This document shows, one piece after another, positions 34,167-62,536 of a stretch of 64,000 nt of DNA. The DNA comes from Escherichia phage A73. Both the position numbers and the translations under genes were made by a program. Under the pieces are notes generated by a model. The model had not been told where the DNA came from and did no database searches. It worked only from the letters and a program-made list of their open reading frames with translations. Where the stretch lies: sequence record OP778609. One strand, given 5' to 3'. How positions within the stretch are numbered: the stretch's first letter is position 1; every line of letters begins with the position of its first letter.

Positions 34167-34200
34167 AGAAAAGGCGCTCAAATGAGCGCCTTTATTTTTA
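34165..34200. terminator. Bidirectional terminator at strand switch
   Basis: aaagaaaaGGCGCTCAaaTGAGCGCCtttattttta: 8-bp stem flanked by A-run and T-run, between convergent gene blocks. Confidence 0.75.
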
Positions 34201-34214: not shown

Positions 34215-35390
34215 TCAAAACGGAATATCGTCGTCAAAATCCATATCATCTACAGACATATTTACATGTCCTTCAATATCAGGGGTAGGTGAATCTTCTG
34301 CTGACGGAGTTAACTGCGGTTCCGGCTCAGGTTTCTTTTCCTCTTGCTTAGGAGTTGAAGCACCGTTACGGATCTTATCTTCCAATTGACAGATGAATCG
34401 GAAATTCTCTTCAGTCTTAGCAATAAAGGTTTCGATATTGTCACGACCCCAACGGGCAGAAAGAATGCCACACTGGCCTAAACGAGCACCGAAAGAGTAA
34501 TCATCCATAGATTTAAACTCTTCACGCAGTTTTGCTTTGATCGAATCCATCGCTGCAAGAACTTGTTCTACGATCACACCCTGATTTGCAATAGTTTCAT
34601 CAGGGAACATTGCATCGGTAATAGATAGTGCATTACCTAAACGAATAGGTAGATCATCTTTACCTTTACCTGAACGTGATCCTGTTCCAGTACTTGCACC
34701 TTTTGGACCGTAAGCTTTAAAGCCTGTAACCGTACCATCATCTGAACGAACACCTGCAATACGACCACCTTCTGTAATCTGACCCGTCTGTTCATCAGTG
34801 AGGTTTACAGTAACTTCTGTGCCGTCTTCCAGCTTAACAACTACCTTATTGCCTTCGATAGATGTGATATCACCATAAATCTTCTTAGCTGCACCACCAG
34901 ACGGCTTTTGCTGCTGTTGGGAACCACTTGATTGCTGCTGTTGCTGACGAGGCTCACGAGCACCGGATGCGTCAGTAATCTTGATACGTGCTTTCTTACC
35001 TTCTGTAGAAGAACCTTGACTACCATCTTGTTTGGTATAGGTCTTGATAACAACAGGTAAACGAATTTTCATACCCTCTTTAAGATCGGTGTAACCACCT
35101 TCAGGATTTTTAATCTGGAACTGATTCTCATACTTCAGATTTTTAACTTCACCCTCACCAAAAGAAATCCATGCTTGATCTTCACCTTCTTTAAGAAGAA
35201 CCGCATAGCGGTGGGTATTGTTAATGCTTTTCTGCTGACCAGTATTCTTGTCTTTGAAGGTAGTCACTCGTGGGCTACCATCTTCATTAATACGTTTGAT
35301 CATGATACGTTCAATCGTACCTGCTGCAATGTTTACTGTGGTATCGGAAACAGCATCGTATACAGCATTGATAACTTTAACTTCAGACAT
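34215..35390 (-). CDS. SSB-like protein with C-terminal acidic DDDIPF tail
   Basis: 391 aa; ends ...SVDDMDFDDDIPF, matching the bacterial SSB C-terminal tail; Gln-rich linker; N-terminal OB fold not verified. Confidence 0.5.
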   Translation of the reverse strand: MSEVKVINAVYDAVSDTTVNIAAGTIERIMIKRINEDGSPRVTTFKDKNTGQQKSINNTHRYAVLLKEGEDQAWISFGEGEVKNLKYENQFQIKNPEGGYTDLKEGMKIRLPVVIKTYTKQDGSQGSSTEGKKARIKITDASGAREPRQQQQQSSGSQQQQKPSGGAAKKIYGDITSIEGNKVVVKLEDGTEVTVNLTDEQTGQITEGGRIAGVRSDDGTVTGFKAYGPKGASTGTGSRSGKGKDDLPIRLGNALSITDAMFPDETIANQGVIVEQVLAAMDSIKAKLREEFKSMDDYSFGARLGQCGILSARWGRDNIETFIAKTEENFRFICQLEDKIRNGASTPKQEEKKPEPEPQLTPSAEDSPTPDIEGHVNMSVDDMDFDDDIPF

Positions 35391-35473: not shown

Positions 35474-35854
35474 TTAGAGATAAACTCGCTTAACTTTTTC
35501 ATGAACATTATCAAACAAAGTGTTGATCATCTGCAAGTCTTTAATAAGTTCTTCCGTAAATTGTTCTTCTTTGTGAGCAAACACACGAGAACGGTCAATG
35601 TTTACAGGATCTGAACTTTGGTCGCCTGACAGATCGAAAATGTCGATACCGATACGAGCACGGCCTTTTTCAATCTTGTTGTTTTCATCAATACCGAAGA
35701 CACTCATGATTTGCATTTCACGATCTTCTTCACTGTTTGTGTAAATGATCGTCGTATTCAAATTCTTAACACCATCGTAAATGTGAATGTTACGTGTCGC
35801 AGAGATAGGAATCCAATCAGCAACCAAATAATCTTTACCGTCGAAAATACTCAT
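35474..35854 (-). CDS. Hypothetical protein
   Basis: 126-aa ORF in the - strand early block; no motif. Confidence 0.45.
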   Translation of the reverse strand: MSIFDGKDYLVADWIPISATRNIHIYDGVKNLNTTIIYTNSEEDREMQIMSVFGIDENNKIEKGRARIGIDIFDLSGDQSSDPVNIDRSRVFAHKEEQFTEELIKDLQMINTLFDNVHEKVKRVYL

Positions 35855-35908
35855 CTTCTTTCCTCTTTTGTTTAAGTGGGGCCATTATGCCCCACACTTA
35901 ACTTTCTG

Positions 35909-36481
35909 TCAAGGACGTTTCGGTGGACTAACGACACCTTTTTTAGATAAAGGTAATTCGTCTGCATCTTTTCCACGGAGAGATTCTAACCACTCATCTA
36001 AAGATAGAGGTACTTTGCCAACACCCTTGGACCATACAGATAAGCAATACAGGTCGTATGCAGATGGGCCAGCATCACCCTTGTCACCATACGGCCCTTT
36101 TAAACTCGCCAACCAATCCTTTTCATTCAGTGGGATAGTGCCTGGATCTTCTTGTCGAAGAACTCTTAGGTATGTTTCATAAGCAGACTCTCCACGGGGA
36201 CCCATTGGACCAGGTAAACCTTGCGGTCCCTTTGCATAGTCTAAATATGCAGACTTTGAACCATCATTGACCACTGAAACTTTATACAATGACCAAGCCA
36301 ACAGAACTATCCAACAAGCAAACAATGCAAGCGGGTAAGGGATCATTGAAGTAAAGAATGACAGGGCTAAAATTACAACCTTGTTCTTGTGATCACGACG
36401 GAAAGCGATGATCACAGGGGCTAACCAGATAGCAAAGATAACCCACGCAGATAAGATAAACAACCAACTAATGTATTCCAT
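35909..36481 (-). CDS. Membrane protein with collagen-like/fibre-type motifs
   Basis: 190 aa; three N-terminal TM helices, then [39 protein letters not shown] and SLRGKD segments. Confidence 0.5.
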   Translation of the reverse strand: MEYISWLFILSAWVIFAIWLAPVIIAFRRDHKNKVVILALSFFTSMIPYPLALFACWIVLLAWSLYKVSVVNDGSKSAYLDYAKGPQGLPGPMGPRGESAYETYLRVLRQEDPGTIPLNEKDWLASLKGPYGDKGDAGPSAYDLYCLSVWSKGVGKVPLSLDEWLESLRGKDADELPLSKKGVVSPPKRP

Positions 36482-36669
36482 TAAGCCTCCTCAGTATCGT
36501 CTTTAAAGTAATCTAACATCCAACTCTCTACAGGTTTCGCATAGTAACCCGTTCGCCCTTTCTTTTGGAACTCCATAACAATTTCATTTGCAATACCTTT
36601 TGTGATTGCGATCCCGATCAGTGCACCACCAGGCCCCATTACTGCATGTGAACTAAGATCATTACTCAT
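36481..36669 (-). CDS. Hypothetical small protein
   Basis: 62-aa ORF, start overlaps upstream stop. Confidence 0.35.
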   Translation of the reverse strand: MSNDLSSHAVMGPGGALIGIAITKGIANEIVMEFQKKGRTGYYAKPVESWMLDYFKDDTEEA

Positions 36670-36961
36670 TTTTAACCCCCTTCATTTTATCTCTTAAACT
36701 TTGAGCATCCCACGTATAACCTGAGGAGATACCTTTTTCACGTTCACTATCTTTGAACTTGCAAATTACAGATTTTGCTTCACCATCAACAACAACCGCA
36801 TAACTGTTGTAGTAATTGTGTTGCTTCTTGCAAAATTCGTGTAACTCCTTGACCTCTATTGGCATCAGAGAAGGTAGATTTTTGTATCGCTTTGTCTGAT
36901 CATCTTCACCCTCTCCGCAACCAACAAGAAGAAGTATACATAAAATGATTAACCTTTTCAA
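36662..36961 (-). CDS. Putative lipoprotein
   Basis: 99 aa; N-terminus MKRLIILCILLLVGCGEG with lipobox LVGC. Confidence 0.5.
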   Translation of the reverse strand: MKRLIILCILLLVGCGEGEDDQTKRYKNLPSLMPIEVKELHEFCKKQHNYYNSYAVVVDGEAKSVICKFKDSEREKGISSGYTWDAQSLRDKMKGVKNE

Positions 36962-37113
36962 TAGCTACCCCCAAAATATTTTGTAGTCTCTACTGCAAAT
37001 ATTGTCCCAAGTATGAACCATGTCGCACTTAGCACGTTGAAAGGTAAAAACCTCGATCCTGCAAGAGAAACCATAATAAAAAACGTTACAAAAATCTCTG
37101 GAGGAATCATCAT
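36958..37113 (-). CDS. Small hydrophobic peptide (not in ORF track)
   Basis: 51-aa ORF MMIPPEIFVTFFIMVSLAGSRFLPFNVLSATWFILGTIFAVETTKYFGGSY; ATG overlaps stop of upstream gene (ATGA). Confidence 0.35.
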   Translation of the reverse strand: MMIPPEIFVTFFIMVSLAGSRFLPFNVLSATWFILGTIFAVETTKYFGGSY

Positions 37114-37511
37114 TGTTTGATAGTCCCTTTGGCGATCATCTCGTCAAGTTCATCTTCCGCACGACACATGATTTGGTAGATAGTTTCTGGATTGTTTAAG
37201 AATTCTGTGTACTTCTTGATACGACAAACTAAACGTGCACGAACTTTACGCTCACGGGCCACATGATTAAAGTAATGTCCCTTTTGTCTGTAGACCCAAG
37301 CATAATATACAGTTTTTGCTCTCTGGCGATCAGAACCTAAACGTTCAGCTAATTCTGTGTACGGGTCATTGTTGGTTGGACCAAACAAAAATATTTCTGC
37401 AAAACTTTCCTTCATGATACGAGCTTCTTCATCCGTAACTCGCGGACATTCTTCAGAACCGTAACGTGGGGTTTTAGTGGCATTTGGCTTCTTAGGGTAT
37501 ACTTTACGCAT
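37110..37511 (-). CDS. Hypothetical protein, possible HTH regulator
   Basis: 133-aa basic protein; segment YTELAERLGSDRQRAKTVYYAW is helix-turn-helix-like. Confidence 0.4.
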   Translation of the reverse strand: MRKVYPKKPNATKTPRYGSEECPRVTDEEARIMKESFAEIFLFGPTNNDPYTELAERLGSDRQRAKTVYYAWVYRQKGHYFNHVARERKVRARLVCRIKKYTEFLNNPETIYQIMCRAEDELDEMIAKGTIKQ

Positions 37512-37578
37512 TTCATCACTCCTCTAATTAAAACTCTTACTCCCGATGTGAGGAGCCTTTCGGCCCCTCCCTTAAATA

Positions 37579-38187
37579 TCAATCACAACTGCTTGAAGAA
37601 CTGCTACTGCTACTATCCGAAGAATAACTATCGTAAGATGATGAGCTATCATACGAACTTGATCGACTTGGAGAACAGTAAGAACTTGAACTACTTGTAC
37701 GATCTTCACTGGATGACATTACGGCAGCATACGTTGCCACACCACCTAAAGCTGCCACCTGAGGATCAACCTGGCTAGTCCCGTACCCGTTTGGGGAGTC
37801 GCTCATCTTACGTGGTGCTGCCCGACGTGCCTGATCAATATACTGTCGCTTTGCCTTCGGCGGTAATTTCTTACCTTGAGCATAGGACGGTAATTCAACG
37901 CCCTTCAGTTGTTCATCCAAGGACTTAGGCGGTGTAGCCTGAGCTTTTGGGCGTTCAATTGAGATATCTACAACCTTCATTGTTTTATCTTTAAGGTTTA
38001 CCCCTACCAACGCTTCATTTTCCTTTAGTGGTTCTTCTAAAGATCGTGTTTCAACTGGACTGAATTTAACGCTTGCAGTTTCTTGACGTTGTTCAGCTTG
38101 CTTTGCGATATACTTATCGATCGCCGCAGTTTCTACTTCCAGAGGAATAAATAATGATTTTACCCAAGCAACAAACTTCTTGATCAT
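37579..38187 (-). CDS. Hypothetical protein with poly-Ser C-terminal tail
   Basis: 202 aa; last ~50 residues almost exclusively Ser/Tyr/Asp. Confidence 0.45.
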   Translation of the reverse strand: MIKKFVAWVKSLFIPLEVETAAIDKYIAKQAEQRQETASVKFSPVETRSLEEPLKENEALVGVNLKDKTMKVVDISIERPKAQATPPKSLDEQLKGVELPSYAQGKKLPPKAKRQYIDQARRAAPRKMSDSPNGYGTSQVDPQVAALGGVATYAAVMSSSEDRTSSSSSYCSPSRSSSYDSSSSYDSYSSDSSSSSSSSSCD

Positions 38188-38408
38188 ACTCTTTCTCCTT
38201 TTTCATCAATAACGATTAATGGCTCAATAACTAAAAGGCGCTGCTTCATAAGACTTTTTATAGTCTCATCGATATCAGATAGAAGAATATCTTTTTGACT
38301 TTCTATCCAATTACGTGCTGCCTTTTCTGAAACAAATGCAATACCTTCTTGACCAATATCCCATTCACAGAATACTTTATACACCATCATCTTCTCCCTT
38401 GTCAACAT
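38184..38408 (-). CDS. Hypothetical small protein
   Basis: 74-aa ORF, start overlaps upstream gene. Confidence 0.35.
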   Translation of the reverse strand: MLTREKMMVYKVFCEWDIGQEGIAFVSEKAARNWIESQKDILLSDIDETIKSLMKQRLLVIEPLIVIDEKGERV

Positions 38409-45940: not shown

Positions 45941-46422
45941 TCCTCTTCTGTTTGTTCATACTCGGAAGGGGTGATGAAGTAATTCTGCCCCCGCTTGCAC
46001 TGGTTGAAAGTCCCAACATACCAAGTACCGATATCCATGTTGATGAAAGTTTCTTCTTGAACAAAGATCAGATCAGTAAGATTATTGTCTGATCGTTGGG
46101 TCGCTAACAAAATATGCTCAAAATCTGCTAATGTTATGTTGTAACAGAAACCATCTTCGTCCTCCATAACTGCAACAACAGAGCTACGCCCTTGGGTGAA
46201 TTGACGAAACTGTAAACGTAAATGACGATGTTCATGTTCATTCGTCTTCACCTTTTTCCGATTTTCGAAATATTCTTCGGAATAATTTGGATGCTTTAAT
46301 TTCAGCTTTTCGATCTCTTCGGTAGAAAGAGCATCCTTATCCCAACCAGTAAACCATTTACCGTTATCATTAAATACCGCAGGGTATTTACGCTTACTCA
46401 AATCTTTAAACATTTGAATCAT
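45934..46422 (-). CDS. Hypothetical protein
   Basis: 162-aa ORF. Confidence 0.4.
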   Translation of the reverse strand: MIQMFKDLSKRKYPAVFNDNGKWFTGWDKDALSTEEIEKLKLKHPNYSEEYFENRKKVKTNEHEHRHLRLQFRQFTQGRSSVVAVMEDEDGFCYNITLADFEHILLATQRSDNNLTDLIFVQEETFINMDIGTWYVGTFNQCKRGQNYFITPSEYEQTEEDW

Positions 46423-46792
46423 CTCCTTCAGCTAGGCTACGAATATACTTGAAAATTTCTTCATGATCATTACCAAATGCAACATATCCCTTTTCAGCAT
46501 CAAGTCCATAATTATGCTCTATTTTCTCTAAAAAGCAATTTCCGTAAGTAATTTTTTCAACCAGGGGATCGGATTCTGAAAAACCCAACCCAAAAGCTTT
46601 CCAGTGCTCACGTTTAAGCTCCACGTATTCCCACGGTTTATCTCCATCGTGGAATAACACAAGGGTGTCTTGATCTTTCTTTTCTACATTGACATGACCA
46701 TAAAATCCACTGGGCGATTTGTTAAATTTCATAATCTTCTCCGTAAATATCTTTAATTTTTGAACTGAGGTATCCAGGATCGCAGCCATCAT
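46406..46792 (-). CDS. Hypothetical protein
   Basis: 128-aa ORF; true start may be the internal Met at 46732. Confidence 0.35.
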   Translation of the reverse strand: MMAAILDTSVQKLKIFTEKIMKFNKSPSGFYGHVNVEKKDQDTLVLFHDGDKPWEYVELKREHWKAFGLGFSESDPLVEKITYGNCFLEKIEHNYGLDAEKGYVAFGNDHEEIFKYIRSLAEGDDSNV

Positions 46793-47054
46793 ACCACACT
46801 TCTACGAAAACCTTTTGGGAATCTTTGATGATCTTTGCCCCGACTCTTTCAATCCCCTTGAAGAAAGATTGTAAGATGTAATCATCTAACACGTTTACTC
46901 CATAAGCATCGTGGAGGGATTTTTCATCGTGAACATACACAACCATCTTACCATCATACGTAACTTGAATGCAAGGGTCATCTTCCCAAGTAATAGCCGG
47001 AGAATCCGGCTCAAGCTTTGCAATAACACCAATAGTCAATCGGTTGTCACTCAC
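46722..47054 (-). CDS. Hypothetical protein
   Basis: 110-aa ORF, start overlaps stop of the GHKL-like gene. Confidence 0.4.
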   Translation of the reverse strand: MSDNRLTIGVIAKLEPDSPAITWEDDPCIQVTYDGKMVVYVHDEKSLHDAYGVNVLDDYILQSFFKGIERVGAKIIKDSQKVFVEVWYDGCDPGYLSSKIKDIYGEDYEI

Positions 47055-48268
47055 TCTTTACCCCCTGCGATGCGTAACATTTGGATAGTTTTCTCCAGTT
47101 CTTTACGAGGTTTGGCAACTAAACGACGTTCGTGTCGCTTCAGGAAGCCTTCTAAGAACTCTAACGGTTTAAAGGATAACACTTCCTGTACTGATTCGTC
47201 AACAGCATACTCTTTCTGGACCATACGATAAACCGGATTTTTTACAGTTACAGGAGTATAACCCTTACTGATCGCCATTTGGGTAACAACACGCTTCTTG
47301 CCATCGGTCCATGAGTCATCGATCGGGAAAGAATCTTTACCGTATTTTTCAGAGAATAACTTAACTGCTGTTTTTGTCAAGTCATCCTGATCTTCTTGTG
47401 TTCGACTTTGACCCCAATAATAACCACCAGAGGTCTTAGCACGACGTTCCGAGAACAAAGCAAGGTCATCGTACTGCTCAAGAGCTAAACGCGCCAGAAG
47501 CTCGATATCGTCGCTTTCTGACAGCAGTCGGTTTGCTTCGTACTTAACTTCAAAAGTATTTGCACTATCACGATCACGGTCAAGGGTGAAAGCTTCTGGC
47601 TTGAAGTCGTAATCGAATTTAAAATTACCTGGAACACGAGTAACGAACAGTCCATTTACAAACAGGTTGCAGTCACCGCCTGTGATAGATCCATCCTCTT
47701 CTTCATTTTGGTATTCATCAGCCGCATTGTACAGCTTAGTATAAGCTTTGCCTCGATCATTCTGAATAACGACTGTACGTTCAGTTGTTGGTGCATAGTT
47801 ATCCATAATTTCTGACATAGCGTACTGAGGGATGTTTTCAATGATCACAGTTACAGTATTTGAATCACGGCCCGACAAAGCATTTTCATGGATATCTACA
47901 GCCAAAATGTTCTGTTCGTATGTGGTATCGTAAACCATATTTGGAATCCAAAGATCATTACCATTTTCGATAACGATATCTGCACCTTCACGAACAAGCA
48001 CTAAAAGACCTACTTTCAGACCTTCGCCAAACTTACCGATCTTACTGTCATCATCACGTTTGGTTGAAACACCCATCAAAAGGCCGGAGACAGGAACAAC
48101 GCCACCACGAGAGATGATTGTGATCTTGCCTTGATTACTGTCATCATTGCCAAAATAAATATTGAAATCTTCCGTATCGATAGCGTTTTGCATGAGTTCA
48201 CGAGCACCTTGCCACCATGACCAGTGGCTGACGTAATTTTCAGTGATGCTCAATTTAATCTGTTTCAT
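47051..48268 (-). CDS. GHKL-type ATPase-like protein (putative)
   Basis: 405 aa; N-box-like RELMQNAID (E24, N28, D31) and G2-box-like GKFGEGLKVG (78-87); G1 box not clear. Confidence 0.4.
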   Translation of the reverse strand: MKQIKLSITENYVSHWSWWQGARELMQNAIDTEDFNIYFGNDDSNQGKITIISRGGVVPVSGLLMGVSTKRDDDSKIGKFGEGLKVGLLVLVREGADIVIENGNDLWIPNMVYDTTYEQNILAVDIHENALSGRDSNTVTVIIENIPQYAMSEIMDNYAPTTERTVVIQNDRGKAYTKLYNAADEYQNEEEDGSITGGDCNLFVNGLFVTRVPGNFKFDYDFKPEAFTLDRDRDSANTFEVKYEANRLLSESDDIELLARLALEQYDDLALFSERRAKTSGGYYWGQSRTQEDQDDLTKTAVKLFSEKYGKDSFPIDDSWTDGKKRVVTQMAISKGYTPVTVKNPVYRMVQKEYAVDESVQEVLSFKPLEFLEGFLKRHERRLVAKPRKELEKTIQMLRIAGGKE

Positions 48269-48280
48269 TTATTTACCCTC

Positions 48281-48997
48281 TTATTTGTTGTATTGATAAA
48301 TTGCTTCAGCTAAACCCCGTGGAGTTAGTGACCGGATCATCTTAGTTCTTGCTGACTTACCTCCCAACTTATTCTGCTGATCTGACCAACCAGGTGCAAC
48401 AGGAACCGGAGAGGTTTTTGGAATTATAAACCCATTTCCTGTCCAAAGTCCAGTCTTTTTCGGATAAGCATCCCGTGGTTTAATGTATTGAGGAAAATAA
48501 GGGTTAACATCATTTACCGGAAGGTAACCACCATATTCCCAAGGGTTAAAATATACAGTAGGTTTTCGCCATTGTCCAGCTAAAACACTTACTGGGTTTT
48601 CAATCATATACGGACAATCGAAAACAAATTCAGCAAGCCAGGCTGCAATCTTCGCAGTTCTTACCGCCTTGATCTGGAAGAAAGGATCTTTTGCTTTCTT
48701 CGATGCAAAGTGACGAGAACCACTAACAGCCATATCGGTACATGGAGGGTAGGCAAGGATCAGGTCCGGCGCAGGCAATCCTAAGTTCTCTACATTCTCC
48801 ATCCATTCAATATCGATAAAGGCGTTAACGTAAGTGATGTTGGGATGAATTTCCTTTACGCCTTCATAATCCCCGTGATCAGCATCATCATAGTTGAAGC
48901 AGTAGCATTTGTGCCCTGCCTTCGCCCAGGGAAGAACATCAATCCCTGAGCCAGAAAAGAGACTCCAGATAATCTTTTTATTCATCGTAGCATCCAT
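48281..48997 (-). CDS. Compact C5-cytosine methyltransferase-like protein
   Basis: 238 aa; motif I-like SLFSGSG (12-18), motif IV-like YPPC (83-86), motif VI-like ENP (133-135), RSLTPRGLAEAI near C-terminus; very short region where a target-recognition domain would sit. Confidence 0.5.
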   Translation of the reverse strand: MDATMNKKIIWSLFSGSGIDVLPWAKAGHKCYCFNYDDADHGDYEGVKEIHPNITYVNAFIDIEWMENVENLGLPAPDLILAYPPCTDMAVSGSRHFASKKAKDPFFQIKAVRTAKIAAWLAEFVFDCPYMIENPVSVLAGQWRKPTVYFNPWEYGGYLPVNDVNPYFPQYIKPRDAYPKKTGLWTGNGFIIPKTSPVPVAPGWSDQQNKLGGKSARTKMIRSLTPRGLAEAIYQYNK

Positions 48998-49290
48998 ATA
49001 GTGGTTAATTTACAAATACACCAGAAAATCCCGATCAGTGTAGCAAGAGCAATAACACAAGTCAATGCCATAGGTAAGAATATTGTCATAATCACTGCAA
49101 ATACTGAAATACCTACGCTTGCAATAAGATCCGGTACGAAATAGTGAAATGGTTCTCTGGCCTTTTTAACGTTGTCCCATGTTATCACTACGGAGGTAAT
49201 AGCGAGCCAGAATAAAAAGTACAAAGTGCAAGAAAATAAAGTCATATTTGACTTAATCATATCAAACCACATGTTGTAGAATTCAATCAT
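48982..49290 (-). CDS. Small 3-TM membrane protein
   Basis: 102 aa; begins MIE like the upstream neighbour; overlaps the MTase-like gene start. Confidence 0.45.
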   Translation of the reverse strand: MIEFYNMWFDMIKSNMTLFSCTLYFLFWLAITSVVITWDNVKKAREPFHYFVPDLIASVGISVFAVIMTIFLPMALTCVIALATLIGIFWCICKLTTIWMLR

Positions 49291-49610
49291 TCAGTTTTCC
49301 TCGGTACAGATGCAATAACAGCCTTTTCGACGAGACATACAATAAATCTCCCAATCCCTGCCAAAAGGAGAGCAAAGACTGTAAAAGGCAACCCATAAAT
49401 AAGAACTAGGGCCATCAATCCAAAACCAATGGCAAACAGGGTTTCTGTGCCTAGCCACATCTTAGAGTAATTGATATAATTATACCGCAATTTTAAAAAC
49501 AGTCCAGCAATAGAGCCTACAGAAAATATACCAATCAACCAAGGTGCGGTTACAAATGAACGACTGAACCCTTCCCAAAAAACAAAAACATTAATGATTG
49601 CTTCGATCAT
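49287..49610 (-). CDS. Small 3-TM membrane protein
   Basis: 107 aa; start-stop overlaps on both sides. Confidence 0.45.
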   Translation of the reverse strand: MIEAIINVFVFWEGFSRSFVTAPWLIGIFSVGSIAGLFLKLRYNYINYSKMWLGTETLFAIGFGLMALVLIYGLPFTVFALLLAGIGRFIVCLVEKAVIASVPRKTE

Positions 49611-49861
49611 AAACCATACCTCGCTTCATATAAGAATTCATCAAGATCTTTACTGTCGTCTGAACCTTCTACTGTCAGTGGCATTAGATGTTCTTTAAAA
49701 TAATAGCAAAGATTGCCGGAACTTGTTTCTACTAAACATGTTGTTTTGCAAACCATTTTAACCCTTACCGATAGTCCGGCATCTTCATGGCTGTGGACCA
49801 TTGCAAGGCAACCATCGTAAAGCTTATCCTCATAAGGTAAGCAAGGATCTGGATTTTTCAT
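49607..49861 (-). CDS. Hypothetical Cys-rich small protein
   Basis: 84-aa ORF. Confidence 0.35.
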   Translation of the reverse strand: MKNPDPCLPYEDKLYDGCLAMVHSHEDAGLSVRVKMVCKTTCLVETSSGNLCYYFKEHLMPLTVEGSDDSKDLDEFLYEARYGL

Positions 49862-50154
49862 TGGGAACTTTCCTCCTCTGCATGTTTACGTACCCAAGCT
49901 ACACGGGCCGGATTGAGGTGTTTCTTAGTGTCTTTATGATATGTATACCGGCCTTTATCAAAAGGGAACTCACAGCACAGTCCAGCGTCGGTAAACTGTT
50001 GTTGCATCTCTTCAGACAAATCAAAATTATAGTCCGGCCAATGGTCCAGTGAGTAACATAACCCCTTACGACGATTAAACGGATCGCGGTCAGGTGCGCC
50101 ATCGTCAAGCCACGCGGCATAGGCTTTATAGAATGCTTTAAGTTGCTCGCTCAT
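49858..50154 (-). CDS. Hypothetical protein, paralog family B (copy 2)
   Basis: 98 aa; MSEQLKAFYKAYAAWLDDGAP...GLCYSL...FTDAGL..EFPFD aligns with ORF 40146-40472. Confidence 0.45.
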   Translation of the reverse strand: MSEQLKAFYKAYAAWLDDGAPDRDPFNRRKGLCYSLDHWPDYNFDLSEEMQQQFTDAGLCCEFPFDKGRYTYHKDTKKHLNPARVAWVRKHAEEESSQ

Positions 50155-50550
50155 TTATTCCTCCTCTGCATATGCAATCTTAGTCATGTAGTCAATACAA
50201 TCATATTGAACATTGTGGCTATTAAAAACAGCCTTGCCTTTGTAAATAACTTCCCAATAATTAATACTTTCAATTTCGGAAAGGTAGGCAACACACTCCC
50301 CCTTCGGATTAATAAGTTCAACCTGCTCAGTTTCTCGTAATTTCCAACCAGTAGGCAACTGAACAACTTGTTCCTTAAAAATCATAATATTGTCACGGTA
50401 ACCCGTTGCCCTTTTAAATGCTCGGAGTAATTCTTTGTATTCACGATATTTCACATAAAGGCCGTCCTCTGATTTTTCCATACGGGCTTCATTGATATTG
50501 CAATTACCATCCATATCTCCAACCAGGTCGTAACGATATACAGGTTTCAT
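50155..50550 (-). CDS. Hypothetical protein
   Basis: 131-aa ORF. Confidence 0.4.
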   Translation of the reverse strand: MKPVYRYDLVGDMDGNCNINEARMEKSEDGLYVKYREYKELLRAFKRATGYRDNIMIFKEQVVQLPTGWKLRETEQVELINPKGECVAYLSEIESINYWEVIYKGKAVFNSHNVQYDCIDYMTKIAYAEEE

Positions 50551-50759
50551 TTTTTAACTTTCTCCTTTTTCTCAGGTTTTACATCGCAAACTTTTTGTTG
50601 ATAACTGATCGGTGTTACATAGCGCCACGTCTTTTTAAGGTTCTCAACGAGGATTCGCATTTGTTCCTCATCAGCACCCCAGCCTGCGGTATGTGCTATT
50701 TCATCAACACTCATCTGGCATTTAACGTACCATCTTGTAATTGTCTTCGATTGTATCAT
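50547..50759 (-). CDS. Hypothetical small protein
   Basis: 70-aa ORF, start-stop overlap. Confidence 0.35.
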   Translation of the reverse strand: MIQSKTITRWYVKCQMSVDEIAHTAGWGADEEQMRILVENLKKTWRYVTPISYQQKVCDVKPEKKEKVKK

Positions 50760-50786
50760 TATCGTTTCCTTGAGGTCAAGAGATTT

Positions 50787-51083
50787 TTATTTAATACCTA
50801 ATTCTTTTGCACTGTAAATATCATTACCTTCATAGCCTTTGTAGTAGATCAGGATATCTTTGACAATCTCTCCCGTCGGTCCGCTCCGGCGAGTACGTGG
50901 TCGCTGTGCATTGACCAAATAAACTTCACCACGAGTATTTATTTTTGTTGTACGATGGCCTTCGACAAAGGTCAAAGTTGTATATGCAGGAACCTTAACA
51001 AGAACTTCTACCTGGTCACCAGCAGTATTCTGTTGTTCATTTGCCATATCATCTTTAACAACAGTAGTCATAAGTTTGGTCAT
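50787..51083 (-). CDS. Hypothetical protein
   Basis: 98-aa ORF. Confidence 0.4.
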   Translation of the reverse strand: MTKLMTTVVKDDMANEQQNTAGDQVEVLVKVPAYTTLTFVEGHRTTKINTRGEVYLVNAQRPRTRRSGPTGEIVKDILIYYKGYEGNDIYSAKELGIK

Positions 51084-51085
51084 TT

Positions 51086-51349
51086 TTATTCTCCTTTGTT
51101 CAGTGTGGATACGAATTCGATATAAGATTCTGCATTTCGTTTATGATAAATCTTAGGGTAACTTTCGGTTACTTTGCTGTATTTGATGTATCGCTCAAAC
51201 ATACCGACGACACCACCAATGGAATGCACAACAACGCCCTCTTCACCAACAAAGGTAACAACCTCTACGAATGGAGTATTATCGTAAGAGCGATTTACAA
51301 TCAGGTCGCCAACTTCAAATTCGATTTTATCATTTTGTGAGTAGTACAT
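51086..51349 (-). CDS. Hypothetical protein
   Basis: Start set at MYYSQNDK behind AAGGAG RBS (ORF track 51409 runs into the promoter). Confidence 0.4.
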   Translation of the reverse strand: MYYSQNDKIEFEVGDLIVNRSYDNTPFVEVVTFVGEEGVVVHSIGGVVGMFERYIKYSKVTESYPKIYHKRNAESYIEFVSTLNKGE

Positions 51350-51380
51350 TTGTTTTCTCCTTTCTGTTTGGTATGGGAGA

Positions 51381-51409
51381 AGTATAGGGGAGTTTGATGA
51401 GGGTGTCAA
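51381..51409 (-). promoter_or_regulatory. Sigma70-like promoter
   Basis: On - strand TTGACA-N17-TATACT, ~32 nt upstream of the start at 51349 and just downstream of the helicase terminator. Confidence 0.55.
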
Positions 51410-51411
51410 TA

Positions 51412-51440
51412 GAAAAAACCGCCCGAAGGCGGTTTATTTT
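51412..51440 (-). terminator. Rho-independent terminator after primase-helicase
   Basis: AACCGCCcgaaGGCGGTT hairpin with A-run and T-run flanks (bidirectional in form). Confidence 0.7.
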
Positions 51441-51445
51441 TAGGA

Positions 51446-53491
51446 TCAGAAAGGTGCGTCGTCGTCCCAATCATCCGGCTCTGTGTCCGGCACATCAGGA
51501 ATATCACCTGTGGATTCAACGATACTTTGTTGTTCCCACGTAGGTTCTTCTGAAGGTTGTTCCATTTCTTCCATAACCTTCTTGATCTCTTCCTCTTGCT
51601 CACGCAGGAAGTTATCATCCGGCTCAGGAATATCTTCCTCTTTAATATCTGAACGAGTGAGATCACTGTTTTGTTCAGACAGAGGTTGAATCTCTGCTGC
51701 TTTAGGCTTAAAGTCTGGAGAACGATGATCATCTTCTGGATGAGCGGCATACCACTCACGAAGAGTTTCATAAGGACTCTCTAAGAAGCCCTCTGGCGGT
51801 TCCAGATAATCACCCGTGTCAATGTCATAGAACACAGGGAATTTACCAGCACGACCGTGTTTACGGTCATCCAGAATAACAAAGTAAGAAGTGTTACGTT
51901 GTTTCATCGGGAGTTCTGGATCTTTGTTACGTTCAATACCCCACATGTAATAAGTGTTACGCATCATTGCACGGCTACCAGCAAACTGCGCTGACTGGAC
52001 TTGACCACCAAATTCATGAGGCTTACCAGATTCAGGCTTGTTAAGGTGACAGAAGCAATAATAGGTAAAGCCAAGCTCTTTTGCCAGTTTGGAGATCTCA
52101 TCAGAGAATCGTTCCAGTTCCTGGTTAGCTTCGGAAGCACTCATACCTTGCACAAGACGAGTGATTGGGTCAATAAAGATATCTTCACAACCTTCTACGA
52201 TCACTGCGTGACGGATAGCACCTTTCAGTTCATCCCATACTGCACGACCATAGTTGTTATAATAGATAACACTATCACCAACTTCATCAGTAGCCTTGAT
52301 CAGTTCTTCTTGCTTAAAGTAGCCACGTTGACCTTCAAATACTTCATTACCCCAAATGTCACGGAAAGTTCCATCTTCTTGAGGAATCATTACCTTTTCT
52401 GCGTTAACAAAGTCTTTATGATAACGCTTACCTGCGATCTTTTTACAGGTAATTTCGTTCTCTTCTTCAAACTTAAACACCGCAGCCTTTGACTTCTCAA
52501 TGCCTGTAATGTGTTCTACCATCTGGTTAAGAAGTTCACTCTTACCCATCTTGACCCCAGCCCCGATAAAGTAACCTTCACCTGGGCGACGGCCTAAAGT
52601 AAGCTTGGTCATGGTAGGCCAAGGGAATTTCTTACCAAGTTTAGGGATCTCATGGGCTTTTTCACGGAACTGTGAATAAGTCGAGAAACCATCCGGCACA
52701 TATTCCTTTGGCTTCATTGCAGCCCAAAACAACTGATCAGAAAGTCCTTTGTTATACATGTCGCAAGGGTCCATATCTTCTGGAATGTCCACGACTTTCA
52801 TTTGTGGAATTACAGAGTATACCGCTGCAACTGCATCTTTACCTTTCATGATCCCTTTGGCCTTCTCTGCCTCTGTTGCACGGTCAGCGTCGAAAGCTAC
52901 GATAATCTCTTCAAACTTACTCAGAAGCTTATAGTTATTCTTCTGTGATAAGTTTTGCACGGCATTGGATGTACCGTTAGAGATTGATACTACGGTGAAG
53001 TTAGGTTTACGGGTGGAACCATCCTTCGGTTTGTACTTCTCTGTCAATACCTGCCACAAGATTGCAGCATCATATTCACCTTCAGTGATAAAGATCATAC
53101 GTTTGGAAGACTTATTTGCACCTTCCAGCCCAAACATATCACAAGCCACAGATTGGAAACCAATAGTTGTAAAGTGACCTTTCTGTTGCTTAGGGATCGT
53201 AAGATCACGCTTCTTAAAACCTACAACCTTACCTTCCAATGTGTACGGAAAATAATGTGCTTCTGGAGTCATACCGTCTTTAGCTGACAACTTGGTACGA
53301 ATACCAAATCGTTTAGCTGTCTTTTCGTCGATACCACGCTCAGGGATACTTTTACACGGATAAGTCAATACGTCTTCAACTGTTTCTTCCACACGAGACA
53401 CACCACCACCATAATTACGTGCTACTGAAGCTTTAGGATTTTTATGTCCAAACTTATAACCGCCAAACAGACTTTCGCCAATAGTGCTCAT
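51446..53491 (-). CDS. Primase-helicase (T7 gp4-like)
   Basis: 681 aa; TOPRIM-like FITEGEYDAAIL and AFDADRA, DnaB-type Walker A GAGVKMGKSELLNQM; acidic C-terminus ending DDWDDDAPF. Confidence 0.8.
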   Translation of the reverse strand: MSTIGESLFGGYKFGHKNPKASVARNYGGGVSRVEETVEDVLTYPCKSIPERGIDEKTAKRFGIRTKLSAKDGMTPEAHYFPYTLEGKVVGFKKRDLTIPKQQKGHFTTIGFQSVACDMFGLEGANKSSKRMIFITEGEYDAAILWQVLTEKYKPKDGSTRKPNFTVVSISNGTSNAVQNLSQKNNYKLLSKFEEIIVAFDADRATEAEKAKGIMKGKDAVAAVYSVIPQMKVVDIPEDMDPCDMYNKGLSDQLFWAAMKPKEYVPDGFSTYSQFREKAHEIPKLGKKFPWPTMTKLTLGRRPGEGYFIGAGVKMGKSELLNQMVEHITGIEKSKAAVFKFEEENEITCKKIAGKRYHKDFVNAEKVMIPQEDGTFRDIWGNEVFEGQRGYFKQEELIKATDEVGDSVIYYNNYGRAVWDELKGAIRHAVIVEGCEDIFIDPITRLVQGMSASEANQELERFSDEISKLAKELGFTYYCFCHLNKPESGKPHEFGGQVQSAQFAGSRAMMRNTYYMWGIERNKDPELPMKQRNTSYFVILDDRKHGRAGKFPVFYDIDTGDYLEPPEGFLESPYETLREWYAAHPEDDHRSPDFKPKAAEIQPLSEQNSDLTRSDIKEEDIPEPDDNFLREQEEEIKKVMEEMEQPSEEPTWEQQSIVESTGDIPDVPDTEPDDWDDDAPF

Positions 53492-53649
53492 TACTGCTCC
53501 TTGATCATTGTCGCCAAATAAATAGTGTTACCGTTTGAATTAATGCCTGCTGTTACAGGACCCATCAATTTATAACCATAATCGTAATGCTTCAGTATAT
53601 ATTTTTGAAGAGACAACAAATTTGTATACGATAGGATCTTAATGTCCAT
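53491..53649 (-). CDS. Small ORF coupled to primase-helicase (not in ORF track)
   Basis: 52 aa MDIKILSYTNLLSLQKYILKHYDYGYKLMGPVTAGINSNGNTIYLATMIKEQ; GGAGG RBS; start overlaps upstream stop (TGATG), stop overlaps helicase start (TAATG). Confidence 0.35.
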   Translation of the reverse strand: MDIKILSYTNLLSLQKYILKHYDYGYKLMGPVTAGINSNGNTIYLATMIKEQ

Positions 53650-53957
53650 CAAAAACCTCCAGTTTCTTCATCAAATGCCTGACTTACTTGTGCATCACGG
53701 ACACGTTCTTCAATACAACGATACACTACTTCATACGGGATATCAAGAGCAATTTCTTCACCATCTTCATAAACAGTGATTGAAAAAATATCTAAGTAAT
53801 CTTCGGCATCCCAATCCGACTCCGCATCTGGAATACCTTTGTACATAACAACCTCTGCTTCAACAACTACCTCTTTACCGATCGCTTTATGAAAATGTGT
53901 GAATTCGAAGTTTACTGTACGCATTTTATTTTCTCCTGATAATTTATATTTATTCAA
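53649..53957 (-). CDS. Hypothetical acidic protein
   Basis: 102-aa ORF. Confidence 0.4.
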   Translation of the reverse strand: MNKYKLSGENKMRTVNFEFTHFHKAIGKEVVVEAEVVMYKGIPDAESDWDAEDYLDIFSITVYEDGEEIALDIPYEVVYRCIEERVRDAQVSQAFDEETGGF

Positions 53958-53960
53958 TTC

Positions 53961-54516: not shown

Positions 54517-54517
54517 A

Positions 54518-54742: not shown

Positions 54743-54789
54743 ATTTAATCTCCTTGTTTGTGTTCAGTTACTTTATCACTTTGAGAGAA

Positions 54790-54820
54790 AGATGCAACAA
54801 GATTATCGCATCTTTTTTAA
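54790..54820. terminator. Hairpin with T-run between helicase and downstream operon
   Basis: AGATGC-N12-GCATCT followed by tttttt on + strand; on the gene-bearing - strand the U-run is weak (uucucuc). Confidence 0.35.
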
Positions 54821-62014: not shown

Positions 62015-62289
62015 TAAATTTCCTCCAATTCAGACTCTACGATGTAAAAACCTTGTAATATTTCATAAACCCACGTATTAAAATGGTCAGAATATACTAT
62101 ACCCTTTACACTATAAGTTTTATTTTCAAACTTAACTGTTGGGTTATTGACCCTCACCACAGTATCACTTGCAAACTTGGGCATACCGTGCTTTGAAATT
62201 GCTTCACGATCAACTTTATAAACATTCCTCCCAAAGAACTTTTCCAGTGGGCAAAGATTATTCTCAAAATCAGTACCCATAGTCAACAT
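62014..62289 (-). CDS. Hypothetical small protein
   Basis: 91-aa ORF. Confidence 0.35.
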   Translation of the reverse strand: MLTMGTDFENNLCPLEKFFGRNVYKVDREAISKHGMPKFASDTVVRVNNPTVKFENKTYSVKGIVYSDHFNTWVYEILQGFYIVESELEEI

Positions 62290-62536
62290 CCCCTGTAATT
62301 ACTGAAGTGCTTTTCTTTGTCTTACCATTTGAAGTCTTGATATGAGTATCTGCATGAGGACAATACACCACATTCAGACTCATATCTCCTGGGTTAGCTT
62401 TGAGACGATAAATCTTACAACCTGCCTCTTTCATTTCTTGCGGTAAAATGTAATTAGTAGTCTTATCGACAACGCCCTTTTGATCACAACCGGAAATGAA
62501 ACATACCATAAAAATCGCAGCAATAATCTTTTTCAT
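62270..62536 (-). CDS. Putative lipoprotein
   Basis: 88 aa; N-terminus MKKIIAAIFMVCFISGCDQ with lipobox ISGC. Confidence 0.45.
   Translation of the reverse strand: MKKIIAAIFMVCFISGCDQKGVVDKTTNYILPQEMKEAGCKIYRLKANPGDMSLNVVYCPHADTHIKTSNGKTKKSTSVITGDVDYGY

What the first reader, a model, noticed from the sequence alone, without database searches (positions are those of the whole stretch)
36481..37113. Lipoprotein and small-membrane-peptide cluster in the early block
A lipobox protein (LVGC) is flanked by a 62-aa ORF and an unannotated 51-aa hydrophobic peptide whose ATG overlaps the upstream stop, directly next to the collagen-motif membrane protein. Phage lipoproteins expressed early commonly block the phage's own receptor; a second lipobox protein sits at 62270-62536.
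Basis: inference. Interest (0 to 1): 0.45.

Follow-up and report, generated by a model that had tools for sequence, protein, structure and literature searches.

The report
Lipoprotein beside a T4 Imm-like gene
A small, conserved group of phage genes encodes a lipoprotein, a tiny membrane peptide and a relative of the phage T4 "Imm" protein. Together they probably stop further phages from entering an already infected cell, but nobody has tested this.

Summary
On the minus strand, four translationally coupled genes encode a 51-aa two-helix peptide, a 99-aa lipoprotein (TTG start, lipobox LVGC), a 62-aa protein and a 190-aa membrane protein with collagen repeats. All the small ORFs are under purifying selection.

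The window is an E. coli Septuagintavirus, 100% identical to phage W70 at this locus.

- **Module:** the peptide, lipoprotein and membrane protein co-occur, adjacent, only in Septuagintavirus, Certrevirus and a few relatives. This clade also shares a tail-fibre type.
- **Imm link:** the membrane protein is a divergent relative of T4 Imm (superinfection immunity). In T4, imm is itself preceded by a lipoprotein gene, imm.1.
- **Not a spanin:** the real Rz/Rz1 pair lies next to the terminase gene.
- **Not Llp-like:** no sequence or fold match to Llp, Rtp45, Spackle or anything solved.
- **Dispensable:** sibling phage A7_1 has lost the mature domain and still plaques on K-12.
- **Sorting unclear:** 10 of the 28 family members seen carry Asp after the lipid cysteine, an inner-membrane retention signal. 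That fits poorly with a conserved outer-membrane receptor target.

Best reading (about 0.4): an Imm-centred envelope module that blocks entry after adsorption. Receptor masking stays possible (about 0.2). Early timing is unproven. Novelty: a new variant of a known kind. Interest is moderate.

The parts
36958..37113 (-). 51-aa small membrane peptide (W70_100 homologue) with two hydrophobic helices joined by a conserved AGSRF turn. Its ATG overlaps the upstream stop, and its stop overlaps the lipoprotein's TTG.
   Evidence: ORF and hydropathy. phrog_22594, E 1.8e-12. 42-48% identical homologues sit in the same slot in Certrevirus. pN/pS 0.07-0.29.
36662..36961 (-). 99-aa prolipoprotein (W70_101 homologue). 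Signal peptide is residues 1-14 (36920-36961) and the lipid-modified Cys15 codon is 36917-36919. An acidic tether of about 18 aa follows, then a compact alpha-beta3-alpha domain with two invariant cysteines (C44, C67).
   Evidence: Sequence. Family alignment with invariant G14, C15, C44 and C67. AlphaFold model at pLDDT 78, with the core above 90. phrog_15849, E 1.9e-22. Only 12 clusters among 1.84 billion representative proteins.
36481..36669 (-). 62-aa protein (W70_102 homologue) with a weakly hydrophobic Gly-rich N-terminal segment and an acidic C-terminus. It is an insertion between the lipoprotein and Imm-like genes that is specific to Septuagintavirus.
   Evidence: ORF. Found in only 5 phage records, all Septuagintavirus, and absent from CR8, SSBI34 and metagenomic relatives. 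pN/pS 0.00-0.15. No family match.
35909..36481 (-). 190-aa inner-membrane protein (W70_103 homologue). It has an N-terminal Imm-like transmembrane domain (residues 1-72), then short collagen G-X-Y runs interleaved with tail-fibre-like SAYE...WL.SLKG modules, then an invariant C-terminal peptide GKDADE(I/L)PLSKxGV.
   Evidence: Pfam PF14373 E 1.5e-3 and phrog_1039 'immunity to superinfection' E 8.9e-6. Family members reach 25 bits. hhalign against T4 Imm gives 78% probability. Family alignment. AlphaFold transmembrane domain at pLDDT about 90.
37110..37511 (-). 133-aa soluble protein (W70_99 homologue), possibly helix-turn-helix. It is the first gene of the coupled chain, and its role in the module is unknown.
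   Evidence: ORF and strong SD. phrog_12333, E 3e-38. Conserved directly upstream of the peptide in all relatives.
37550..37570 (-). Stem-loop (GAAA loop) in the 67-nt gap upstream of the chain. It has no U-tract.
   Evidence: Sequence. RNA fold -16.6 kcal/mol, z -2.6.
35876..35912 (-). Downstream boundary of the chain: a TTGACA-N17-CATAAT promoter-like site whose -10 hexamer sits in the loop of a strong hairpin (35876-35895). It lies just after the Imm-like gene's stop and before the DUF7325 gene.
   Evidence: RNA fold -19.1 kcal/mol, z -4.1. A similar promoter-like site precedes the DUF7325 gene in CR8, SSBI34 and L010.
38376..38407 (-). Candidate Certrevirus-type sigma-70 promoter (TGTTGAC-N19-TATAAA) about 0.9 kb upstream of the chain. 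It could drive the chain's transcription.
   Evidence: Consensus from PMC7344957. The window scan found 3 sites against 0.9 expected. The site is conserved in LTH01 and A7_1.
62270..62536 (-). Second lipobox protein, 88 aa, lipobox ISGC with Asp at +2. It is unrelated in sequence to the first.
   Evidence: phrog_902. 85 phage records, including jumbo phages.

Best explanation
The lipoprotein and the 51-aa peptide belong to a conserved, non-structural envelope module whose anchor is a divergent homologue of the phage T4 Imm protein. Septuagintavirus adds the 62-aa protein.

I propose that the infected cell makes these proteins by coupled translation from one mRNA. The two-helix peptide and the Imm-like protein insert in the inner membrane. 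The lipoprotein is exported, lipidated and disulfide-bonded, and hangs in the periplasm on a flexible acidic tether.

Together they would alter the periplasm and inner-membrane zone so that a second phage of the same entry type can still adsorb but cannot complete tail penetration or DNA transfer. This is the stage at which T4 Imm and Spackle act, not the receptor-masking stage of Llp or Cor.

The Imm-like protein probably has both termini in the periplasm. Its collagen-like, probably trimeric stalk would then hold a conserved C-terminal peptide away from the membrane.

**Shown:** the gene anatomy, conservation, co-occurrence, Imm relatedness, dispensability of the lipoprotein, and absence from virions.

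**Inferred:** lipidation, the disulfide, the topology, any physical interaction between the parts, and the exclusion function itself.
For: 1. **Tight coupling.** Gene boundaries overlap as ATGA, TTGA, 8 nt and 1 nt, and stable stem-loops bracket the chain.
2. **Co-occurrence.** Peptide, lipoprotein and Imm-like protein occur in the same roughly 27 phage records and always in the same order. This holds in metagenomic relatives only 40% identical.
3. **Imm relatedness of the neighbour.** PF14373 is the top transmembrane-domain hit in 4 of 5 members, E down to 1.8e-5. phrog_1039 'immunity to superinfection' scores 8.9e-6. hhalign against T4 Imm gives 78% probability, E 1.8e-5, across both transmembrane helices. 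Three relatives carry precomputed PF14373, and UniProt names two others 'Superinfection immunity protein'.
4. **T4 parallel.** imm is immediately preceded by imm.1, whose product starts MKIAILVIALGLAGC, a lipobox. Both lie just downstream of the DNA polymerase gene. Two other T4-like phages also have a lipoprotein gene touching imm.
5. **Periplasmic hallmarks.** The lipobox and two mature-domain cysteines are present in all 28 members seen. T4 Spackle is likewise a small disulfide-bonded periplasmic protein (PMC7677548).
6. **Accessory, not essential.** A7_1 has lost 224 nt of the mature domain while keeping the SD of the next gene, and it still forms plaques on MG1655 (PMC11370258). The module proteins are absent from the virion proteome.
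7. **Link to the entry route.** The module's clade is roughly the clade holding the full-length W70_107-type tail fibre, 31 records (PMC11370258).
8. **Mixed sorting signals.** The +2 residue is D in 10 of 28 members and N, G, K, F or L in the rest. This fits a periplasmic or inner-membrane target better than a fixed outer-membrane receptor.
Against: - No experiment exists for any of these proteins.
- W70's own Imm-like domain scores below Pfam's gathering threshold (18.8-20.7 bits against 27.9). The hhalign probability of 78% is moderate.
- Only T4 Imm itself has been studied in the PF14373 family. From memory, cloned imm alone suffices in T4, so a lipoprotein partner is not required.
- Four other phage lineages with Imm genes have no lipoprotein within 1.5 kb: Sf11, an Acinetobacter phage, SETP3 and Proteus phiP4-3. 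The pairing therefore occurs in only 2 of 6 lineages.
- The lipoprotein domains of T4 Imm.1 and W70 are not detectably related.
- The topology of the Imm-like protein is inferred only from helix lengths and the positive-inside rule.
- Expression timing is unknown.
Confidence: 0.4

Rival explanations
1. Receptor masking. [quoted passage not shown] T5 Llp does this to FhuA, Cor to FhuA, and Rtp45 to LptD.
For: - It is a small exported lipoprotein encoded by a virulent phage. It is dispensable and not in virions.
- It lies within about 2.5 kb of the tail-fibre genes, and its clade matches that of a tail-fibre type.
- Known exclusion lipoproteins are equally small and mutually unrelated in sequence (PMC12685063; PMC11990801). 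Lack of homology is therefore weak evidence against.
- Most Certrevirus members have Asn at +2, which is compatible with outer-membrane sorting.
Against: - No fold or sequence match to Llp, Rtp45 or any structure.
- 10 of 28 family members have Asp at +2, predicting inner-membrane retention. From memory of Seydel et al. 1999, W70's own Gly at +2 can also retain in some contexts.
- Its strictly conserved neighbours are inner-membrane proteins.
- The primary receptor reported for the sister genus is the flagellum (PMC7344957; PMC11370258). A periplasmic lipoprotein cannot mask that. The terminal receptor is unknown.
- The gene is on the opposite strand from the fibre genes, beyond a bidirectional terminator.
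Confidence: 0.2
2. Another envelope function, unrelated to exclusion. Examples are stabilising or remodelling the infected cell's envelope, tuning lysis timing (T4 imm and sp mutants also affect lysis inhibition), or shutting off flagellar function in a flagellum-dependent phage clade.
For: - All products are predicted to be membrane or periplasmic proteins and are conserved as a unit.
- T4 Imm is also linked to resistance against damage from secondary adsorption and to lysis-inhibition stability (PMC6832632).
- The module is restricted to the clade whose relatives are reported to be flagellotropic.
Against: - There is no positive evidence for any specific alternative.
- The only family with an experimentally studied member that matches any part of the module is Imm.
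Confidence: 0.2
3. Lysis cassette. The lipoprotein is an outer-membrane spanin subunit, and the small membrane proteins are a holin or antiholin, or the inner-membrane spanin subunit.
For: A lipoprotein next to small membrane proteins resembles Rz/Rz1 and holin arrangements. T4 Imm has been said to resemble a holin (PMC6832632).
Against: - The genome has a canonical spanin pair elsewhere. W70_140 has an N-terminal transmembrane segment and coiled coil, and W70_139 is a lipobox protein. Their genes overlap stop to start, just upstream of the terminase gene. Certrevirus, rV5 and PVP-SE1 are reported to have the same arrangement (PMC7344957).
- The endolysin and holin candidates are elsewhere.
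- No protein here has the architecture of an inner-membrane spanin subunit.
- The lipoprotein is not proline-rich.
- It is deleted in the viable phage A7_1.
Confidence: 0.05
4. The small ORFs are chance ORFs or annotation artefacts and have no protein product.
For: Lipobox-like ORFs arise by chance at about 0.67 per 64 kb in shuffled sequence. The 62-aa ORF has no homologue outside one genus.
Against: - All ORFs show purifying selection.
- Protein-level conservation reaches 33-48% identity across genera for the peptide and the lipoprotein.
- The functional residues are invariant.
- SD sequences and coupled overlaps are present.
Confidence: 0.02

Closest known systems
Phage T4 Imm (superinfection immunity protein, Pfam PF14373) with its upstream neighbour Imm.1
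   Same: - The protein next to the lipoprotein shares the two-helix membrane domain and the P-x-(I/F)-(I/V)-A...R/H motif with T4 Imm.
- In both phages a lipoprotein gene sits just upstream of the imm-type gene, inside the replication-gene block.
- Both are non-structural genes of virulent myoviruses.
   Different: - The W70 protein is 190 aa against 83 aa. It carries a collagen-like and tail-fibre-like extension and a conserved C-terminal peptide that T4 Imm lacks.
- Its score is below Pfam's threshold.
- The lipoprotein domains of Imm.1 and W70 are unrelated.
- W70 adds a conserved 51-aa peptide and a 62-aa protein.
- The function of Imm.1 is itself unknown.
Exclusion lipoproteins that mask receptors: T5 Llp (FhuA), T1/phi80 Cor (FhuA), Rtp45 (LptD)
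   Same: Small lipobox proteins of virulent coliphages, made in the infected cell and dispensable for growth (PMC9586334; PMC12685063; PMC11990801).
   Different: - No sequence or fold similarity.
- Those genes sit directly beside the receptor-binding-protein gene. This one does not.
- This family has mixed inner- and outer-membrane sorting signals and obligatory inner-membrane neighbours.
Phage T4 Spackle (gp61.3)
   Same: A small (75 to 85 aa mature) compact periplasmic protein with conserved cysteines, working alongside an Imm-type protein (PMC7677548).
   Different: - Spackle is a soluble all-helical bundle with an ordinary signal peptide. This protein is a lipid-anchored alpha-beta3-alpha domain.
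- The PDB fold searches returned no significant match of any kind. Whether the Spackle entries are in those libraries was not checked.
- No tail lysozyme target has been identified here.
Rz/Rz1 spanins
   Same: A lipoprotein gene overlapping a neighbouring membrane-protein gene.
   Different: - The true spanin pair of this phage group lies next to the terminase gene.
- No partner with the architecture of an inner-membrane spanin subunit is present.
- The mature domain is deleted in a viable sibling.
Plasmid entry-exclusion lipoproteins (TrbK of RP4, EexN of IncN)
   Same: Small lipoproteins that block DNA entry after surface contact. Both appear as the best, though weak, NCBIfam hits for the two lipoproteins.
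   Different: The scores are far below threshold (13.4 against 33 bits, and 12.2 against 23) and mainly cover the signal peptide. This is an analogy, not homology.

Membership tests
Bacterial lipoprotein (signal peptidase II substrate) | N-terminal basic region, hydrophobic core, lipobox [LVI][ASTVI][GAS]C with the Cys within about 15-30 residues of the start | tested here: met
   The protein starts MKRLIILCILLLVGC. The G-C is present in all 28 family members seen. It is one of only two ORFs in the window that fit a strict lipobox pattern.
Bacterial lipoprotein (signal peptidase II substrate) | Actual lipidation and globomycin-sensitive cleavage | not testable with these tools
   This needs palmitate labelling or a globomycin assay.
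Receptor-masking exclusion lipoproteins (Llp / Cor / Rtp45) | Sequence or fold relatedness to a known member | tested here: not met
Receptor-masking exclusion lipoproteins (Llp / Cor / Rtp45) | Gene directly adjacent to the receptor-binding-protein gene | tested here: not met
   The nearest tail-fibre gene ends at 32891 on the opposite strand. Four genes and a bidirectional terminator at 34170-34193 lie between.
Receptor-masking exclusion lipoproteins (Llp / Cor / Rtp45) | Outer-membrane localisation and binding to the phage's outer-membrane receptor | tested here: inconclusive
   The +2 residue is Gly in the window's protein, Asn in most Certrevirus members, and Asp (inner-membrane retention) in 10 of 28 members. 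Binding cannot be tested here.
T4 Imm / Pfam PF14373 Imm_superinfect (applies to the neighbouring 190-aa protein) | Match to the family profile above the curated threshold | tested here: inconclusive
   The window protein scores 18.8-20.7 bits against a threshold of 27.9. Relatives reach 25.0 bits, and three relatives carry a precomputed PF14373 hit. hhalign against T4 Imm gives 78% probability, E 1.8e-5, over 52 columns.
T4 Imm / Pfam PF14373 Imm_superinfect (applies to the neighbouring 190-aa protein) | Small inner-membrane protein with two hydrophobic helices separated by a short basic loop | tested here: met
   Hydropathy. AlphaFold helices 2-28 and 34-72 (kinked at P47/P48), with the loop RRDHKNK, at pLDDT about 90.
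T4 Imm / Pfam PF14373 Imm_superinfect (applies to the neighbouring 190-aa protein) | Blocks DNA transfer from superinfecting phage | not testable with these tools
   This needs exclusion and DNA-entry assays.
Two-component spanin (Rz/Rz1) | Outer-membrane lipoprotein subunit paired with an adjacent or embedded inner-membrane subunit (N-terminal transmembrane segment plus periplasmic coiled coil); required for lysis | tested here: not met
   No such partner is present here. The canonical pair W70_140/139 lies beside the terminase gene (PMC7344957). The mature domain is deleted in the viable phage A7_1.
T4 Spackle | Helical-bundle fold that binds the tail lysozyme | tested here: not met
   The model is alpha-beta3-alpha. 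The PDB fold searches gave no significant match at all. Whether Spackle entries are in those libraries was not checked.

The most novel reading that the evidence does not exclude
The three conserved proteins form one periplasm-facing exclusion machine. A trimeric, collagen-stalked Imm homologue in the inner membrane presents its invariant C-terminal peptide (DADEIPLSxxGV) to the tethered lipoprotein, with the 51-aa hairpin peptide as a membrane co-factor. The assembly would then obstruct the incoming tail tube or DNA conduit. On this reading, 'Imm plus lipoprotein' is a general two-part design, and T4's classical immunity has an overlooked lipoprotein partner, Imm.1.
Probability: 0.12. Interest if true: 0.7.

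Novelty: new variant of a known kind. Interest (0 to 1): 0.4.

Why it matters
How Imm-type proteins stop phage DNA at the inner membrane has been unclear since the 1970s, and only T4 Imm has been studied. This module offers a second, architecturally richer Imm system, with a collagen-like stalk, a conserved terminal peptide, a lipoprotein and a micro-peptide. It sits in a phage that grows on E. coli K-12, and a natural lipoprotein deletion (A7_1) is already available for comparison.

If the parts interact, they would point to what Imm-type proteins contact in the periplasm. They would also prompt a test of T4 imm.1.

There is a practical side too. Septuagintavirus and Certrevirus phages are being considered for therapy and biocontrol, and exclusion genes affect how phages behave in cocktails.

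Tried and rejected
- **Spanin or lysis cassette:** rejected. The true Rz/Rz1 pair was found at the end of the W70 record, and the literature places the endolysin and holin elsewhere.
- **Homology of the lipoprotein to known proteins:** nothing usable.
  - Pfam gave only a weak dsrm hit, E 0.016. PHROGs gave families of unknown function. NCBIfam gave sub-threshold EexN. PADLOC gave nothing.
- **Homology between W70's lipoprotein and T4 Imm.1:** only the signal peptides align.
- **General sigma-70 promoter scan to establish 'early' timing:** uninformative, 18 sites against 19.5 expected. A scan with the published Certrevirus consensus gave one conserved candidate 0.9 kb upstream, which is only suggestive.
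- **IMG/VR locus search with the lipoprotein profile:** only one locus, a CR3-like genome.
- **Is a lipoprotein next to Imm a general rule?** Tested on seven Imm loci. It holds in the T4-like lineage only and not in four other lineages.
- **Does stalk length track the lipoprotein's +2 sorting residue?** Five pairs examined, no pattern.
- **Complex modelling of lipoprotein, peptide and Imm-like protein:** not attempted.
- **Literature on Septuagintavirus:** three papers read, none mentions these genes.
Full report
**Where the window comes from.** Region 35800-37600 is 100% identical to Escherichia phage W70 (OP778610), a virulent 137-kb myovirus of the genus Septuagintavirus, subfamily Vequintavirinae. 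It is 93-96% identical to four siblings: A5-4, A7_1, LTH01 and UPEC06. The window is not the W70 record itself, though. Beyond about 51 kb it lacks an HNH endonuclease insertion present in W70, and 46-64 kb is closer to A5-4 (96.8%) than to W70 (94.7%). It may be the fourth published isolate, A73, which is not in the collection searched.

**Checking the observation.** Every feature is present at the stated coordinates, all on the minus strand.
- A 133-aa soluble protein (37110-37511) ends in ATGA, which starts the 51-aa ORF (36958-37113).
- The 51-aa ORF ends in TTGA, which starts the 99-aa lipoprotein (36662-36961). The lipoprotein has a TTG start with GGGGG 6 nt upstream and begins MKRLIILCILLLVGC.
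- The 62-aa ORF (36481-36669) overlaps the lipoprotein's end by 8 nt.
- The stop of the 62-aa ORF overlaps the ATG of the 190-aa collagen-motif membrane protein (35909-36481).
- Stable stem-loops bracket the chain: 37550-37570 (z -2.6) and 35876-35895 (z -4.1).

A lipobox ORF alone is not improbable, since shuffled windows give 0.67 per 64 kb against 2 observed. Conservation settles the matter.
- The lipobox G-C and two further cysteines are present in all 28 family members seen.
- pN/pS among five sibling genomes is 0.07-0.29 for the peptide, 0.12-0.25 for the lipoprotein and 0.00-0.15 for the 62-aa ORF.

- The 51-aa ORF is annotated in W70 as W70_100. It is unannotated in CR8.
- 'Early' is unproven. 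The genes lie at the distal end of the replication-gene block.

**What the genes are part of.** tblastn finds the peptide, the lipoprotein and the 190-aa protein in essentially the same 27 or so phage records.
- The set comprises the five Septuagintavirus genomes and the Certrevirus phages of Cronobacter, Pectobacterium, Enterobacter, Klebsiella and Pantoea.
- Salmonella phage SSBI34 has the lipoprotein and the membrane protein, with a non-homologous 58-aa two-helix peptide in the same slot.
- The order is always 130-aa protein, peptide, lipoprotein, membrane protein. This holds in CR8, SSBI34 and metagenomic contigs at only about 40% identity.
- The 62-aa protein occurs only in Septuagintavirus.
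- The lipoprotein family is tiny: 12 clusters among 1.84 billion representative proteins.
- None of these proteins is among the 28 virion proteins found by mass spectrometry in W70, whose table starts at W70_106.
- The clade is roughly the one that has the full-length W70_107-type tail fibre, 31 records. The Septuagintavirus paper notes that W70 shares tail-fibre proteins only with Certrevirus, whose members are reported to use flagella as primary receptor.

**The neighbour is a relative of T4 Imm.**
- Pfam's Imm_superinfect (PF14373) is the top transmembrane-domain hit for four of five family members tested. Scores reach 25.0 bits (E 1.8e-5), against 18.8-20.7 bits for the window protein and a threshold of 27.9.
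- PHROGs gives 'immunity to superinfection' at 8.9e-6.
- A profile of the family's membrane domain aligns with T4 Imm across both helices, at 78% probability and E 1.8e-5.
- Three relatives carry a precomputed PF14373 hit, and UniProt calls two others 'Superinfection immunity protein'.
- The family alignment shows three parts: an invariant membrane domain, a spacer of variable length, and an invariant C-terminal peptide G(K/R)DA(D/E)E(I/L)PLSxxGVxKP. The spacer holds two to nine G-X-Y triplets, and in W70 also two tail-fibre-like modules.
- AlphaFold models the membrane domain confidently, with helices 2-28, 34-46 and 48-72.
- A 13-residue helix cannot cross the bilayer, so I infer two crossings. 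With the basic loop RRDHKNK in the cytoplasm, the stalk would then be periplasmic. This topology is an inference.

**A parallel in T4.** While fetching T4 imm for the comparison, I saw that its upstream neighbour imm.1 encodes MKIAILVIALGLAGC..., a lipobox protein. Both genes lie directly after the DNA polymerase gene.
- A lipoprotein gene also touches imm in a Klebsiella Jiaodavirus and in phage VR25. Those three lipoproteins are weakly related to each other, so they count as one lineage.
- Four other lineages with stand-alone imm genes have no lipoprotein nearby.
- The mature domains of Imm.1 and the W70 lipoprotein are not detectably related.
- The pairing is therefore seen in two of six lineages. 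That is suggestive, not a rule.

**The lipoprotein itself.** The AlphaFold model has mean pLDDT 78, with the core above 90. It shows an acidic tether of about 18 residues followed by an alpha-beta3-alpha domain. The invariant cysteines lie on helix 1 and strand 2, which is consistent with a periplasmic disulfide, though I could not verify the bond.
- Sequence searches of the PDB and of four profile libraries gave nothing above threshold.
- The residue after the lipid cysteine varies: Gly or Lys in Septuagintavirus, Asn in most Certrevirus, Leu or Phe in some, and Asp in 10 of 28. By the established +2 rule for Enterobacterales, Asp retains a lipoprotein in the inner membrane. The family thus seems to work from either membrane. 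That fits a periplasmic or inner-membrane partner better than a fixed outer-membrane receptor.

**Dispensability.** Phage A7_1 carries a clean 224-nt deletion that leaves only MKRLIILCILLLVGCGENKGG*. The deletion preserves the Shine-Dalgarno sequence of the next gene. A7_1 forms clear plaques on MG1655 like its siblings. The mature domain is therefore an accessory function.

**Excluding a lysis role.** W70 has a canonical spanin pair immediately upstream of the terminase gene. W70_140 has an N-terminal transmembrane segment and a coiled coil, and W70_139 is a lipobox protein. Their genes overlap stop to start. The CB7 paper describes the same arrangement for Certrevirus, rV5 and PVP-SE1, and places the endolysin and holin candidates elsewhere.

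[quoted passage not shown] That is the stage at which T4 Imm and Spackle act: they block genome translocation, not adsorption. The lipoprotein would be the periplasmic component, and the peptide and Imm-like protein the inner-membrane components.

Rivals:
- Receptor masking in the manner of Llp, Cor or Rtp45 remains possible at about 0.2. Such lipoproteins are small and mutually unrelated. The mixed sorting signals, the inner-membrane partners and the gene's position count against it.
- A different envelope role, such as lysis timing, envelope stabilisation or flagellar shut-off, gets about 0.2.
- A lysis cassette gets about 0.05.
- Chance ORFs get about 0.02.

**Timing.** The generic promoter scan was no better than chance. 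The published Certrevirus early/middle promoter consensus matches once on the correct strand, 0.9 kb upstream at 38376-38407. That site is conserved in two siblings. It is compatible with host-polymerase transcription but does not prove early expression.

**Novelty.** No paper on Septuagintavirus or Certrevirus that I could read mentions these genes beyond 'putative lipoprotein'. The system is best filed as a new variant of a known kind: an Imm-type module with a collagen-like stalk and lipoprotein and micro-peptide partners. Interest is moderate at 0.4. The most novel reading still open is a physically coupled three-part periplasmic barrier, with the implication that T4 Imm.1 is an overlooked partner of Imm (probability about 0.12).

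Noticed in passing
L014:4637-5014 (phage T4, AF158101 26636-27013): T4 imm.1, annotated only as 'hypothetical predicted membrane protein', starts MKIAILVIALGLAGC, a clear lipobox. It sits immediately upstream of imm and downstream of DNA polymerase gene 43. Related lipoprotein genes touch imm in Klebsiella phage LAL003 (L018:1026-1469) and phage VR25 (L020:1885-2388).
   Followed up: partly
L003:2386-2449 (phage A7_1), aligned to window 36688-36911: Natural 224-nt deletion of the lipoprotein's mature domain. It leaves a 21-codon remnant with an intact signal peptide and lipobox, and it keeps the ribosome-binding site of the next gene.
   Followed up: yes
window 46000-64000, and 51446-53491: The window is not identical to any record searched. 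It lacks the HNH homing-endonuclease insertion that splits the primase/helicase gene in W70, so the window has an intact 681-aa ORF. This stretch is closer to A5-4 (96.8%) than to W70 (94.7%), which points to a mosaic sibling, possibly A73.
   Followed up: partly
L022:1176-1475 (UPEC06) and L004:2816-2968 (CR8): Annotation gaps in relatives. The UPEC06 lipoprotein is intact with the same TTG start but is annotated as a 67-aa fragment. The 50-aa peptide gene is not annotated at all in CR8.
   Followed up: yes
window 35876-35912 (-); L005:2344-2390 and 3964-4010 (SSBI34): Recurrent promoter design in this phage group: a TTGACA -35 element and a (C/T)ATAAT -10 element, with a strong GC-rich hairpin between them or enclosing the -10. 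It could couple termination or RNA stability of the upstream unit with initiation of the next.
   Followed up: partly
window 62270-62536 (-): The second lipoprotein has Asp at +2 (predicted inner-membrane retention). Its homologues occur in 85 phage records, including 350-kb jumbo phages (121Q/PBECO4 type, and Yersinia, Erwinia and Serratia jumbo phages). One record labels it 'lytic conversion lipoprotein'. It is unrelated to the first lipoprotein.
   Followed up: partly
window 37579-38187 (-): The 202-aa protein just upstream of the chain ends in an extreme serine-rich tail (SSSSSSYCSPSRSSSYDSSSSYDSYSSDSSSSSSSSSCD). It falls in phrog_13005, of unknown function.
   Followed up: no
window 34215-35390 (-): The last gene of the minus-strand block encodes a 391-aa protein ending in DFDDDIPF. 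That is the acidic tail typical of single-stranded-DNA-binding proteins, yet the gene is annotated as hypothetical in all relatives.
   Followed up: no
window 36662-37511 compared with L002 (LTH01): Synonymous divergence between the window and LTH01 drops from 0.40 in the 133-aa gene to 0.03 in the lipoprotein gene a few hundred bases away. This indicates recent recombination within the module.
   Followed up: no
L008:2566-3224 (W70 record 136565-137223): The canonical spanin pair lies just upstream of the terminase gene, with overlapping stop and start codons: an inner-membrane subunit with an N-terminal transmembrane segment and coiled coil, and an outer-membrane subunit with lipobox LVGC. 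Both are annotated as hypothetical in W70.
   Followed up: yes
L004:4734-4919 (CR8) and L010:4469-4654: Certrevirus-type relatives carry an extra, highly conserved 61-aa glycine-rich membrane protein between the DUF7325 gene and the SSB-like gene. The window has only an 83-nt gap there.
   Followed up: no
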